NCBI GenBank assembly: GCA_019058275.1 | Contig: JAHLVW010000066.1 | Location: 96,001-160,000 of the forward strand | Origin: Candidatus Heimdallarchaeota archaeon | Lineage (GTDB): Archaea; Asgardarchaeota; Heimdallarchaeia; JABLTI01 | DNA length: 64,000 nucleotides | Direction: 5' to 3' | Shown here: piece after piece, positions 20,402 to 22,566 of the stretch | How the letters are laid out: each line of letters opens with the position of its first letter | Position numbering within the stretch: the stretch's first letter is position 1 | Program-made: the position numbers and the translations under genes | Notes under the pieces: model-generated | What the model saw: the letters and a program-made list of their open reading frames with translations, nothing else | What the model was told of the DNA's origin: nothing | The model's database searches: none

Positions 20402-21358
20402 ATGGTTCATAACGTGAATGGTGTTACTAAACTTCTAAATACTAAAGAAGTTTATTTGGAGCATACACCCAAAAACAAGTATAGTGAAATGGTTAAATTA
20501 ATGGAAGATAAAACCATATATGAGCTTTTACAAATTGCTACTAAAGATAAGAATCATTATCACCGTATTTTCGCTGTACATTTACTAGGAAAAAAGAGCG
20601 AGAAAAGAGATGAAATAGTTAACGTTTTACGAGAAGTTGTAACTTATGAGCACTATTCCGTTAGAAACGAAGCAATTTGGGCTTTGGCTAGATTAGGTGA
20701 TTTGAATATACAAGTATCACTTATTGAGATATATGCTACAAATAAGACGAATTTAGAAAAGACACTTACGGTAAAATTATTGGGTAAAATCGGAGACGAA
20801 AACTCAATTCCATTTCTTCTTAATGTCTGTGTAAATTCTGATAGCATTACTAGTTTAAGTGCCGGATCATCAATTCACGAAATATTAGATCGAATTGGTG
20901 TTAAACCACTTTTAAGAGAATTGCATAATGAAGATCTAAAAATAAGACAAGAAGTTGTATGGATTCTAAGTGCTCGCTGTAAATTTCTATATCGCTCAAA
21001 TGAGAAGAAAATCATCATTGAAGCTCTTAAAAATAAACTAGCTCAAGATCCTTCCATTCTTGTTCGTTTAGCAACAGCTTACAATCTGTCTGCACTAAAC
21101 ATTTCTGAAGGATCAAAAGAATTACTTATCTTGTGTATCTCAGGAAAGATTAAACGAGAAAGGCAAGCTTTCTTCCTAAACGAAGTTATTAGAGCATTTG
21201 TCTACAGACAGAAAGAATCATCATTAAAGCTTGTGAACAAGTTACACTTAGCAATTGAAAATTCTGAGGATTTTAGAAAAGATACTAAAACAACTAGAAT
21301 CATTTCAAAAATCGAGAAATCTATAAAGAATTTTGATAAAATTTTTGATATTATGTAA
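20402..21358 (+). CDS. HEAT-repeat protein
   Basis: Repeated VRNEAIWALARLG / LLGKIGDENSIPFL / VRLATAYNL units. Confidence 0.8.
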   Translation: MVHNVNGVTKLLNTKEVYLEHTPKNKYSEMVKLMEDKTIYELLQIATKDKNHYHRIFAVHLLGKKSEKRDEIVNVLREVVTYEHYSVRNEAIWALARLGDLNIQVSLIEIYATNKTNLEKTLTVKLLGKIGDENSIPFLLNVCVNSDSITSLSAGSSIHEILDRIGVKPLLRELHNEDLKIRQEVVWILSARCKFLYRSNEKKIIIEALKNKLAQDPSILVRLATAYNLSALNISEGSKELLILCISGKIKRERQAFFLNEVIRAFVYRQKESSLKLVNKLHLAIENSEDFRKDTKTTRIISKIEKSIKNFDKIFDIM

Positions 21359-21400: not shown

Positions 21401-21490
21401 AATTAACACAATCATGTTAATTAACAATTTTAATTACTAGCTAATTTGACCTTGAATTAACACATCTATGTTATATTTACCTATTTATAA
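21401..21490 (+). promoter_or_regulatory. Promoter of putative ncRNA: two TAACA-N6-TGTTA palindromes plus TTTATAA box
   Basis: AATTAACA-CAATCA-TGTTAATT (21401-21422), AATTAACA-CATCTA-TGTTAT (21455-21474), TTTATAA at 21484-21490, about 25 nt before the RNA 5' end. Confidence 0.6.
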
Positions 21491-21511
21491 GAAGATGCTG
21501 ATATATTTATT

Positions 21512-21671
21512 GGCGATTAGGAAGCTAATGTATCGACAAGAAATCAACAAGGGTCTTGTATGTTGGTTTTTCTGGTGGTGCATTAGAAATAGACGAAAAG
21601 AAAATAGTCAAGATTCCTTTACCCAAAGGAGCTTGATGACATTCGGAAACGTCGACTAATCGCCCCTTTTT
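21512..21671 (+). ncRNA. Unassigned structured ncRNA (multi-branch junction)
   Basis: Closing stem GGCGATTAG/CTAATCGCC; internal hairpins GAAATCAACA/TGTTGGTTTT, TTCTGGTG/CATTAGAA, GTCAAG..TTCCTTT/AAAGGAG.CTTGAT; G-U pairs favour + strand; T-tract follows. Confidence 0.7.
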
Positions 21672-21690
21672 GGTTATGGGATAATTTCAC

Positions 21691-22566
21691 TCAAATTGTA
21701 TCTGATCCAAATTCCTTGATTTTTTCTATGACTCTGATAGCTTCTAATGTTTCTCTTACATCATGAGTTCTAATCAAGCTTGCACCATGTAGAACAGCAA
21801 TACTAGTTGCTCCGAGAGAACCGTAAAGCCTATCTTTTGGGTCCTTGATGTCTAATATCTTCCCAATAAATGATTTTCTTGATAATCCAATGCAAATTGG
21901 TTGATTGAATTTCTTACCTATATCCTGCAGATGTTTCAAAATATGAGCATCAATCTTATACCACTTAAAATCTTCAATTCTATGAAAGCCAATATCTGGA
22001 TCAACAATTATCTTATCGAGCCCAATACCTGCGTCTTGAGCGATTTTTAGAGAATGATCTAGTGCTGAAATAACTCTCTCTGTTGGATTTCCTTTGAATC
22101 TGTTTAGCTTAGTGGCTCCAATGATAATTGGTACATCAAAATCTGCTGCTACTTTCGCTAAGCTAGGATCATCATTTAGTCCACTAATATCGTTAATCAT
22201 TTTAGCACCATTTTTTAAAGCTGCTTTAGCAACTATAGCTCTGGTAGTATCAATTGAGATTGGTTTTTTTATTTCATCAAGAATGATTTTTAATCCCTTT
22301 ACCACTCTATCACTTTCCTCTTTAGGAGAAATCTCAGTCTCGAGATAAGGAGCTGTACTTTTTGCACCAATATCAATTATATCTGCGCCCTCTTTTATTT
22401 GTCTGATAGCAGTTTGCAAAATACTTCCAGGACAAGTTTTAATTGAATCCTTGTAGAACGATTCTGGACTAAGGTTGATTACTCCTTGGATCTTTACAGA
22501 TTCATTTATTCCTATCTTCAATTCATCTAATTTAACAATACTCAATTGAAAAGCTCCTATCTTCAT
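21691..22566 (-). CDS. folP: Dihydropteroate synthase
   Basis: GVINLSPESFY, GADIIDIGAKSTAP, ISIDTT, MINDISG, IIVDPDIGF, GLSRKSFIG, IRTHDV. Confidence 0.9.
   Translation of the reverse strand: MKIGAFQLSIVKLDELKIGINESVKIQGVINLSPESFYKDSIKTCPGSILQTAIRQIKEGADIIDIGAKSTAPYLETEISPKEESDRVVKGLKIILDEIKKPISIDTTRAIVAKAALKNGAKMINDISGLNDDPSLAKVAADFDVPIIIGATKLNRFKGNPTERVISALDHSLKIAQDAGIGLDKIIVDPDIGFHRIEDFKWYKIDAHILKHLQDIGKKFNQPICIGLSRKSFIGKILDIKDPKDRLYGSLGATSIAVLHGASLIRTHDVRETLEAIRVIEKIKEFGSDTI

What the first reader, a model, noticed from the sequence alone, without database searches (positions are those of the whole stretch)
21401..21671. Independently transcribed, apparently regulated ~155-nt ncRNA of unknown class
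Seen: between the convergent HEAT-repeat gene and folP lies a GC-enriched multi-branch fold closed by a perfect 9-bp stem (21512-21520/21656-21664). It has three internal hairpins, and its G-U pairs work on the + strand. A TTTATAA box sits about 25 nt upstream of the first G and a T-tract follows the closing stem. The loop of hairpin 1 contains GGGU, complementary to the ACCC loop of hairpin 3 (possible kissing loop). A UGAUGA box-C-like word is at about 21634. It is not upstream of any gene on its strand, so a riboswitch is unlikely. I could not match it to tRNA, 5S, SRP or RNase P. Inference: a stand-alone structured RNA.
Basis: partly seen in the sequence, partly recalled or inferred. Interest (0 to 1): 0.8.

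Follow-up and report, generated by a model that had tools for sequence, protein, structure and literature searches.

The report
New tuning-fork small RNA family
This is a real, undescribed ~155-base non-coding RNA gene found in one order of Heimdall-group Asgard archaea, in two or three ancient copies per genome; it folds into two long arms clamped by a "kissing" loop pair and shares an unusual upstream promoter element with the 23S ribosomal RNA gene, but its function is still unknown.

Summary
Window 21512-21671 (+) is a stand-alone RNA gene with a TATA box, a 9-bp terminal stem and an oligo-T terminator. It matches no Rfam family and is not a tRNA. SRP RNA, RNase P RNA and a permuted 5S gene lie elsewhere in the genome.

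Homologues occur in all 12 genomes of the order and in 12 further metagenome sequences. They form three ancient paralogues, each at its own syntenic site: A by folP, B by DUF202, C between glycosyltransferases. None turned up in about 210 other Asgard genomes.

Covariation is strong: 36 of 50 pairs have compensatory changes. The layout is fixed in 46 copies: P1 of 9 bp, junction strands of 4, 5 and 2 nt, and two arms of about 62 nt. UGAUGA is not conserved, and the 63-aa ORF is broken in relatives.

A TTAACA-N6-TGTTAA palindrome sits at -108 (and at -54 in type A). Its five best genome-wide matches are RNA A, RNA B, the 23S rRNA promoter, the purA/rtcB divergent promoter and guaA. My best guess, at about one in three, is an abundant stable RNA tied to large-subunit ribosome synthesis or translation.

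The scan had already flagged type B copies in another genome. No expression data were obtainable.

The parts
21403..21420 (.). Distal palindrome TTAACACAATCATGTTAA, about -109 from the RNA's first G
   Evidence: At -107/-108 in all 20 type A and B genes of the order's genomes, and in most type A and B metagenome copies. It is the best PWM hit in the 4.1-Mb genome at 29.0 bits.
21457..21474 (.). Proximal palindrome TTAACACATCTATGTTAT, about -55
   Evidence: At -54 in all 11 type A genes of the genomes and in the type A metagenome copies. The 23S rRNA promoter has a TTAACAC half-site at the same distance from its TATA box.
21484..21490 (+). TATA box TTTATAA
   Evidence: Ends 22 nt before G21512. 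A TATA-like box at the same position is conserved in the alignment of 10 orthologues and in types B and C.
21512..21671 (+). Whole RNA gene: predicted transcript from G21512 to the T run
   Evidence: CM R1 176 bits, R2 156 bits. MFE fold z = -6.0.
21512..21520 (+). P1 5' strand GGCGAUUAG
   Evidence: 9 bp in all 46 copies. 99.5% of cells are paired and 4 of 9 pairs show compensatory change.
21521..21524 (+). J1/2, GAAG (consensus RAAG)
   Evidence: Always 4 nt; AAG is nearly invariant.
21525..21586 (+). Arm 1 (P2): 10 bp, a 2x2 loop, 13 bp and an 11-nt loop
   Evidence: 57-66 nt in all copies. 18 of 20 pairs show compensatory change across paralogues.
21551..21554 (+). Kissing-loop strand GGGU in the arm 1 loop
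   Evidence: Complementarity to each RNA's own arm 2 loop beats 500 of 500 partner permutations. The pairing covaries between paralogues.
21587..21591 (+). J2/3, AAAUA (consensus AAAAA, followed by an invariant GAC)
   Evidence: Always 5 nt; the sequence is conserved in types A, B and C.
21592..21653 (+). Arm 2 (P3): helices separated by conserved internal loops YAA/GRAA and AAUA/GACR
   Evidence: 60-66 nt. Helices 4-7 are 68-93% paired, and 14 of 21 pairs show compensatory change.
21621..21624 (+). Kissing-loop strand ACCC in the arm 2 loop
21654..21655 (+). J3/1, GA
   Evidence: Always 2 nt.
21656..21664 (+). P1 3' strand CUAAUCGCC
21665..21671 (+). CC followed by T5: an archaeal oligo-T terminator, or a 3' U tail
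   Evidence: A T run follows P1 plus 2 nt in every copy.
21672..21680 (+). Conserved 3' flank GGTTATGGG, between the T run and the folP stop codon
   Evidence: G234, T235, T236, T238 and G239 are invariant in 10 orthologues. Its role is unknown.

Best explanation
SHOWN. This is a gene for a ~155-nt non-coding RNA. The RNA folds as a 'tuning fork': a 9-bp terminal stem (5'-GGCGA...UCGCC-3'), a three-way junction with invariant strand lengths of 4, 5 and 2 nt, and two ~62-nt arms lying side by side. The arms are clamped by a 3-8-bp loop-loop (kissing) helix. The gene carries a TATA box and an oligo-T terminator. Upstream lie TTAACA-N6-TGTTAA palindromes at fixed positions, -108 and, in type A, -54. 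INFERRED. The palindrome is the binding site of one regulator. Its best genomic sites are these RNA genes, the 23S rRNA promoter, the purA/rtcB divergent promoter and guaA. On that reading the RNA is made as a stable RNA together with large-subunit rRNA, the ATP/GTP branch enzymes and the RNA ligase that the intron-rich 23S and the permuted 5S require. The most likely function, at about 1 in 3, is as a compact protein-binding RNA in ribosome (large-subunit) biogenesis or translation. The partner and the chemistry are unknown.
For: Fold: z = -6.0 on the + strand. Types B and C fold the same way on their own. Covariation: 18 of 50 pairs among 10 orthologues, with 94.8% of cells paired against 35-49% when the partner is slid. 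36 of 50 pairs in 24 sequences. 34 of 50 in 17 distinct metagenome sequences. Distribution: 12 of 12 genomes of the order, 2-3 copies each. None found in 71 other genomes of the class or in 149 sampled from the phylum outside the family. Synteny of each paralogue. Fixed architecture in 46 copies. Kissing loop: own-loop pairs average -5.4 kcal/mol against -4.3 +/- 0.2 for permuted partners, with 0 of 500 permutations as good. Compensatory variants are listed. Promoter element at -107/-108 and -54. Genome-wide PWM scan: the top five sites are RNA A at 29.0 bits, RNA B at 24.4, C98:97993 at 22.2, purA/rtcB at 20.6 and guaA at 19.5; the next best is 14.7. C98:97993 lies about 70 bp upstream of a TATA box that heads the 23S rRNA leader, and it is conserved in 5 genomes. 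The purA/rtcB site is conserved in the genus. The 23S gene is 4282 nt against a 2987-position model and contains several insertions. The 5S gene is permuted. Both need a ligase.
Against: No protein partner was identified. The neighbouring genes (cupin, HEAT solenoid, folP, DUF202, glycosyltransferases) are not RNA-binding families, and the HEAT protein is a generic alpha-solenoid. The shared-regulator idea rests on motif matches only. The guaA site is a conserved half-site fused to the TATA box, and it forms a full palindrome only in this genome. No clear site was seen upstream of the 16S, 5S, SRP RNA, RNase P RNA or tRNA genes. In the G008/G010 clade only the purA-proximal site is kept. A regulator's target list says when the RNA is made, not what it does.
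Confidence: 0.55

Rival explanations
1. The RNA is a ligand-sensing or catalytic RNA: a riboswitch-like aptamer or a ribozyme. The conserved three-way junction would be the active or binding site. The RNA would act in trans, or would control read-through antisense into the convergent downstream gene.
For: The architecture is that of purine-riboswitch aptamers and hammerheads: P1, two parallel arms, a loop-loop clamp and the shortest junction strand at J3/1. Sequence conservation is concentrated in the junction and internal loops. The motif links the RNA genes to the purine genes purA and guaA, and type A always sits beside folP. The downstream gene is convergent, 13-72 nt away, in 19 of 21 loci.
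Against: No Rfam riboswitch or ribozyme family matches. There is no expression platform and no downstream gene on the same strand. The arms are three times longer than in known tuning-fork aptamers. The three ancestral loci are only three independent events for the convergent arrangement (p about 0.125). The hammerhead core (CUGAUGA...GAAA) is absent.
Confidence: 0.15
2. The RNA is a Y-RNA-like module of an RNA-repair or RNA-ligation system. It would be made together with RtcB and would tether or regulate RNA-processing enzymes, as YrlA/YrlB do in the bacterial rsr-yrlBA-rtcBA operon.
For: Twin near-palindromes lie just upstream of the rtcB TATA box, with the same site-to-TATA spacing as in type A. 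The terminal stem has a conserved sequence and is followed by a 3' U tail.
Against: No TROVE/Ro60 protein was found in the genome (the genome is 92.8% complete). There is no tRNA-like T or D loop. The rtcB-proximal site is missing in the G008/G010 clade, and the conserved site is equally well placed for purA. RtcB is a housekeeping enzyme in archaea.
Confidence: 0.12
3. The RNA is a cis-antisense regulator of the convergent gene (folP for type A). The folP 3' UTR would run through the RNA gene, so the two transcripts would pair or the polymerases would collide.
For: The folP stop codon is 16-25 nt from the RNA's T run in every genome, including the sister genus. The first T runs on the minus strand lie inside the complement of arm 2.
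Against: An elaborate covarying tertiary fold and a conserved junction are not needed for antisense action. The three paralogues face unrelated genes. Type B faces a co-directional gene in this genome and in G006.
Confidence: 0.07
4. The feature is a known housekeeping RNA in disguise (a divergent 5S rRNA, a split-off 23S domain, a tRNA, a C/D or H/ACA guide RNA) or a 63-aa protein gene.
For: Its three-way topology resembles that of 5S. Rfam's 5S model finds nothing in this genus. A UGAUGA word and an open 63-codon frame are present.
Against: The 23S gene matches the full model, positions 1-2987. ARAGORN and the Rfam tRNA model do not call it. UGAUGA is replaced by CAAGAC, GAAGAC or AAAACG in types B and C, and there is no D box or K-turn partner. 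The ORF is kept only in G000 and G004. There are three paralogues per genome.
Confidence: 0.02

Closest known systems
Purine riboswitch aptamer (Rfam RF00167), the 'tuning-fork' three-way-junction fold
   Same: P1 is closed by the 5' and 3' ends. Two hairpin arms lie side by side and are clamped by Watson-Crick pairs between their terminal loops. The junction nucleotides are conserved, and J3/1 is the shortest strand.
   Different: There is no sequence or covariance-model match. The arms are about 62 nt instead of about 20. There is no expression platform and no downstream gene. It is a stand-alone gene with its own promoter and terminator, and ligand binding is untested.
5S rRNA
   Same: Small stable RNA. 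The terminal helix closes a three-way junction with two arms carrying internal loops. It shares an upstream promoter element with the 23S rRNA gene.
   Different: No loop C or loop E motifs and no RF00001 score. It is 153 nt long, not 120. The arms kiss. The genome has its own permuted 5S gene elsewhere, and there are three paralogues.
Bacterial Y RNAs YrlA/YrlB of the rsr-rtcBA RNA-repair operon
   Same: A ~100-150-nt RNA whose ends pair in a sequence-conserved stem. It has a compact tertiary module and a 3' U tract, and it may be co-regulated with RtcB.
   Different: No Ro60/TROVE gene was found. There is no tRNA-like module. It is not in an operon with rtcB. Rfam Y-RNA models do not match.
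SRP RNA Alu domain
   Same: Two hairpin loops pair with each other (G-rich against C-rich) next to a terminal helix.
   Different: The SRP RNA of this genome is on contig C74 (94.9 bits). The hairpins here are long arms rather than helices 3 and 4, and there is no UGUAAU turn.
Archaeal C/D box sRNAs (L7Ae K-turn RNAs)
   Same: A UGAUGA word occurs in the type A copy.
   Different: The word is not conserved in types B and C. There is no D box, no tandem G-A partner and no guide segments, and the RNA is three times the size.

Membership tests
Any Rfam 15 family | Covariance-model score at or near the gathering threshold | tested here: not met
   The window scan found only two tRNAs. Permissive scans of types A, B and C gave only scattered hits of 3-19 bits, with no family recurring.
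tRNA / tRNA-Sec | Cloverleaf with T loop, D loop and anticodon loop | tested here: not met
   ARAGORN and RF00005 call the two flanking tRNAs but not this locus. The 17 nt before the 3' strand of P1 cannot form a T arm (read directly).
5S rRNA | RF00001 match with loop C (CCGAAC) and loop E motifs; one essential copy | tested here: not met
   No RF00001 hit at E <= 10. A permuted 5S gene carrying these motifs lies on contig C89.
C/D box sRNA | Conserved C (RUGAUGA) and D (CUGA) boxes forming a K-turn | tested here: not met
   UGAUGA occurs only in type A. There is no CUGA partner, and no strand of the arm 2 loops fits C-stem / 3-nt bulge / GA-AG.
H/ACA sRNA | Pseudouridylation pocket and an ACA box 3' of the stem | tested here: not met
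   The internal loops are 2x2, 2-3x3-4 and 4x4 nt. No ANA box follows either arm consistently.
Y RNA | A Ro60 (TROVE) partner encoded in the genome; a Ro-binding stem with a bulged C | tested here: not met
   PF05731 was not found in the 92.8%-complete genome. P1 has no bulge in any copy.
Purine-type riboswitch | An aptamer placed in the 5' leader of the regulated gene, with an expression platform | tested here: not met
   The next gene is on the opposite strand in 19 of 21 loci. A T run follows P1 directly.
Purine-type riboswitch | Ligand binding in the three-way junction | not testable with these tools
   Needs in-line probing or ITC.
Hammerhead ribozyme | Junction core CUGANGA / GAAA / UH | tested here: not met
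   The junction strands are RAAG, AAAAA and GN.
Protein-coding gene (63 aa) | The reading frame is conserved among orthologues | tested here: not met
   The ORF is 63 aa in G000 and G004 only. It is 47 aa in a shifted frame in three genomes and 28 aa or less on that strand in the other orthologues.

The most novel reading that the evidence does not exclude
The tuning-fork RNAs are a lineage-specific, rRNA-co-regulated stable RNA component of the large-subunit ribosome or of its assembly line, that is, an extra 'ribosomal' or snoRNA/MRP-like RNA. They occur in archaea that already have a ring-shaped permuted 5S rRNA and an intron-rich 23S rRNA. The three paralogues would then give alternative particles.
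Probability: 0.15. Interest if true: 0.9.

Novelty: categorically new. Interest (0 to 1): 0.72.

Why it matters
Heimdallarchaeia are the closest known prokaryotic relatives of eukaryotes, and almost nothing is known about their non-coding RNAs. This family has a compact tertiary fold supported by extensive covariation. It has three paralogues that have been kept since the origin of the order. It also shares a fixed-position upstream element with the 23S rRNA gene.

Two directly testable questions follow. First, what does a tuning-fork RNA made alongside rRNA do? Second, which factor binds a -108/-54 upstream element in an archaeal stable-RNA promoter? Upstream elements at such fixed positions have been little studied in archaea. 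The covariance model built here would also let the family be annotated in Asgard metagenomes.

Tried and rejected
- 5S rRNA reading: tempting, because Rfam's 5S model finds nothing in the genus. Rejected once nhmmer with permuted 5S genes of relatives found the real gene on C89.
- SRP RNA and RNase P RNA: both are elsewhere in the genome.
- Split-off 23S domain: the 23S gene matches the whole model. My motif greps failed only because introns interrupt those sites.
- K-turn / box C: rejected by inspection of both arm 2 loops in all paralogues.
- Ro60 / Y RNA: no TROVE domain.
- The upstream HEAT protein as an RNA-binding partner: the AF2 model (pLDDT 84) matches only generic designed alpha-solenoids, with no Ro-like ring, and the gene is absent beside the RNA in G006, G009 and G011.
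- The palindrome in other Heimdall families: occurs at chance level, with no RNA next to it.
- 'RNA X' downstream of the C98 palindrome: it turned out to be the 23S 5' leader and processing stem, not a new sRNA.
- Promoters of 16S, 5S, SRP RNA, RNase P RNA and tRNA genes: no clear palindrome.
- Literature searches on Asgard ncRNAs and Gerdarchaeota: no description of this RNA.

Full report
**1. What is in the window**

Between a HEAT-repeat gene (20402-21358, +) and folP (21691-22566, -) lies a 330-bp spacer. Its second half has 35-39% GC, against 15-22% just upstream.

Positions 21512-21664 fold on the + strand into a 9-bp terminal helix enclosing two long arms. The energy is -54.5 kcal/mol with z = -6.0, and none of 200 dinucleotide shuffles folds as well. 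The opposite strand gives z = -2.9.

TTTATAA (21484-90) ends 22 nt before G21512, and CC plus T5 follows the helix. The only error is 'three hairpins': the conserved structure has two arms.

**2. It is not a known RNA and not a protein**

- Rfam 15 at gathering thresholds finds only the two tRNAs of the window.
- A permissive scan of the locus gives one 16.7-bit chance hit. Types B and C give unrelated chance hits.
- ARAGORN does not call the locus.
- The genome's SRP RNA and RNase P RNA are on other contigs.
- Rfam's 5S model finds nothing in this genome or in any of the 10 congeners, which made a divergent 5S worth testing. The weak 5S hits in complete genomes of the class are circularly permuted genes. 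Using them as nhmmer queries finds the same kind of gene in this genome at C89:84565-84730. An earlier follow-up of this scan reached the same result (e1-5538473). The RNA is therefore not the 5S rRNA.
- The 63-aa ORF (21468-21659) is intact only in this genome and its nearest relative. It is frameshifted or truncated in the other nine orthologues, and Pfam finds nothing in it.

**3. Relatives and covariation**

BLAST finds one syntenic orthologue (73-95% identity) in each of the 10 same-genus genomes, in the order cupin, [HEAT], RNA, then convergent folP, then GH3. RNAalifold on 10 orthologues gives 50 pairs, 18 of them with compensatory changes. 94.8% of cells are paired, against 35-49% when the 3' partner is slid by 1-3 columns, and 0 of 500 shuffles reach any observed measure.

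A covariance model (R1) then found a second and a third paralogue. A model built on both types (R2) finds:

- 2-3 copies in all 12 genomes of the order, which comprises one family and two genera;
- a second copy in this genome at C55:15315-15478 (-);
- nothing in 71 other genomes of the class or in 149 phylum genomes outside the family, under Infernal's stricter filters.

A degenerate pattern scan of metagenome contigs gave 22 more loci, 12 of them new sequences.

Across 24 genome copies, 36 of 50 pairs show compensatory change and 90.3% of cells are paired, against 37-49% when slid. The metagenome set alone gives 34 of 50 and 89.8%. Both alignments were fitted to the model, which biases them somewhat towards the structure. 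Against that, types A, B and C each reach the same fold by MFE on their own.

According to the record titles of the closest genomes, the organism is a Heimdallarchaeota / Promethearchaeati MAG.

**4. Anatomy**

In all 46 copies P1 is 9 bp, J1/2 is 4 nt (RAAG), J2/3 is 5 nt (AAAAA-like, followed by an invariant GAC) and J3/1 is 2 nt. Arm 1 is 57-66 nt and arm 2 is 60-66 nt, and the shortest arm 1 goes with the shortest arm 2.

Sequence conservation across paralogues is concentrated in four places:

- the first five pairs of P1 (GGCGA/UCGCC);
- the junction;
- two internal loops of arm 2 (YAA/GRAA and AAUA/GACR);
- the loops.

The helices themselves vary.

The pairings seen are:

| Pairing | Where seen |
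|---|---|
| GGGU/ACCC | this genome |
| GGGUA/UACCC | G002/3/5 |
| GGGUU/AACCC | one metagenome copy (L107) |
| AGGGU/GCCCU | sister genus |
| GGAUUG/CAAUCC, up to AGGAUUGA/UCAAUCCU | type B |
| AGAGA/UCUCU | type C of the sister genus |

Each RNA's own loops pair better than partners permuted among the 36 distinct sequences. The mean run is 4.75 against 4.18 +/- 0.13, and the mean dG is -5.4 against -4.3 +/- 0.2 kcal/mol, with 0 of 500 permutations as good. In type C the pairing is less clear.

UGAUGA is not conserved: types B and C have CAAGAC, GAAGAC or AAAACG at that place. No K-turn can be drawn in either orientation, so the box-C hint is dropped.

**5. Genomic setting**

Each paralogue keeps its own place in both genera. 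Type A is convergent with folP, type B lies beside DUF202, and type C lies between two GT4 glycosyltransferase genes. The three copies therefore predate the split of the two genera.

The downstream gene is on the opposite strand, with its stop codon 13-72 nt from the RNA's end, in 19 of 21 loci. Because these are only three independent ancestral sites, I give this little weight.

No neighbour belongs to an RNA-binding family. The HEAT protein is a generic alpha-solenoid and is missing beside the RNA in three genomes.

**6. The promoter element**

The twin palindromes seen by the first stage are confirmed and extended. TTAACA-N6-TGTTAA lies at -107/-108 from the first G in all 20 type A and B genes of the genomes, and in most type A and B metagenome copies. 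It lies at about -104 to -114 in three of the four type C genes. A second copy lies at -54 in every type A gene. In this genome the strict motif occurs three times, always upstream of these two RNA genes.

A PWM built from the distal sites was scanned over the 4.1-Mb genome. The five best sites, followed by a clear gap to 14.7 bits, are:

| Site | Score (bits) |
|---|---|
| RNA A | 29.0 |
| RNA B | 24.4 |
| C98:97993 | 22.2 |
| C48:10549 | 20.6 |
| C44:18877 | 19.5 |

- **C98 site.** It lies 43 bp upstream of a TTAACAC half-site, which lies 25 bp upstream of a TATA box. The transcript that starts there is the 5' leader of the 23S rRNA gene (RF02540). The arrangement is conserved in five genomes. 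It mirrors the distal / proximal / TATA layout of type A.
- **C48 site.** It is one of two sites in the divergent promoter between purA (adenylosuccinate synthetase) and rtcB (RNA ligase). The purA-proximal site is conserved across the genus. The rtcB-proximal site is kept in the G000-G009 clade only.
- **C44 site.** It lies in the promoter of guaA (GMP synthase). In relatives only the TTAACA half-site next to the TATA box is conserved.

No clear site precedes the 16S, 5S, SRP RNA, RNase P RNA or tRNA genes.

The 23S gene is 4282 nt for a 2987-position model. It carries an ORF-bearing insertion and insertions inside the 2450 region and the sarcin-ricin loop. Together with the permuted 5S gene, this makes the RNA ligase a plausible member of a large-subunit-rRNA regulon.

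All of this is inference from motif matches. It suggests when the RNA is made, namely together with 23S rRNA and the ATP/GTP branch enzymes. It does not say what the RNA does.

**7. Interpretation**

Shown:
- a real, vertically inherited, strand-specific, tightly folded ncRNA family with its own promoter and terminator;
- a covarying kissing loop;
- no membership in any described family.

Inferred:
- co-regulation with 23S rRNA;
- hence a stable RNA working with the large ribosomal subunit, its biogenesis or translation, probably as a protein-bound particle (about 1 in 3).

Rivals are a trans-acting sensor or ribozyme (the fold class is that of purine aptamers and hammerheads), a Y-RNA-like partner of RtcB, and a cis-antisense RNA against the convergent gene.

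**8. Novelty**

The held literature has no description of this RNA. The scan's own first-stage readers had flagged type B copies in another genome without follow-up (e1-5497044 and e1-5497051). I file it as a new RNA family of unknown class.

Noticed in passing
G000:C55:15315-15478 (-) = L072:1501-1664 (-); not in the window: Second paralogue (type B) of the same RNA in this genome. It scores 140.6 bits with R2, has the palindrome at -108 and its own TATA box, and lies next to a DUF202 gene.
   Followed up: yes
G000:C89:84565-84730 (+) = L115; also L042:1505-1700 and L041:1440-1640 (-): Circularly permuted 5S rRNA gene, with the 3' half before the 5' half. Helix I is capped by a loop and the gene is flanked by an 11-bp stem. 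This explains why Rfam's 5S model finds nothing in this genus and hits only 7 of 61 genomes of the class. It was already followed up in this scan (e1-5538473).
   Followed up: partly
G000:C98:97993-98075 = L114:794-875: The 23S rRNA promoter carries the same TTAACA-N6-TGTTAA palindrome, a TTAACAC half-site and a TATA box, with spacing like that of the RNA genes. The layout is conserved in five genus genomes. The 16S gene (C115) is unlinked and lacks a clear site.
   Followed up: partly
G000:C98:98488-102769 = L145:189-4470: The 23S rRNA gene is 4282 nt for a 2987-position model. It has an A-rich, ORF-like insertion about 2040-2860 nt into the gene. Further insertions split the GGGAUAACAGGCUGAU site and the sarcin-ricin loop AGUACGAGAGGACC. 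These are presumably introns that need EndA and RtcB.
   Followed up: partly
G000:C48:10549-10605 = L112:1150-1206: Twin near-palindromes (TTAACATGATAATGCTAA and TTAACAAAATGATGTTGA, 33 bp apart) lie in the divergent promoter between purA and rtcB. The first is conserved in the genus; the second is conserved only in part of it.
   Followed up: partly
L116:1420-1480 (the leader before the rtcB ATG at L116:1501): The rtcB leader is about 120 nt long. It contains a conserved stem (UAGUGAG...CUCACUA, covarying to GAUGAG/CUCAUC and AGCGAG/CUCGCG) that encloses the invariant sequence UCUGAUACCGGUCUUUCC. It could be a cis-regulatory or processing element of the ligase mRNA.
   Followed up: partly
G000:C44:18877-18898 = L113 about 1278-1299: The guaA promoter has a conserved AAATTAACAYAAT half-site directly upstream of its TATATAAA box in 8 genus genomes. 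It forms a full palindrome match only in this genome.
   Followed up: partly
window 21672-21680: GGTTATGGG, just after the RNA's T run and 10 nt before the folP stop codon, is nearly invariant in 10 orthologues. Types B and C have other conserved words after their T runs (ACTTTGG, ATGTAC, ATTTAC). The role is unknown.
   Followed up: no
window 20402-21358 (+): The HEAT-repeat protein upstream of type A is a generic alpha-solenoid (AF2 pLDDT 84; best PDB matches are designed alphaRep and armadillo proteins). It is only 37-61% identical within the genus, apart from 92% in the nearest relative, and it is absent beside the RNA in three genomes.
   Followed up: yes
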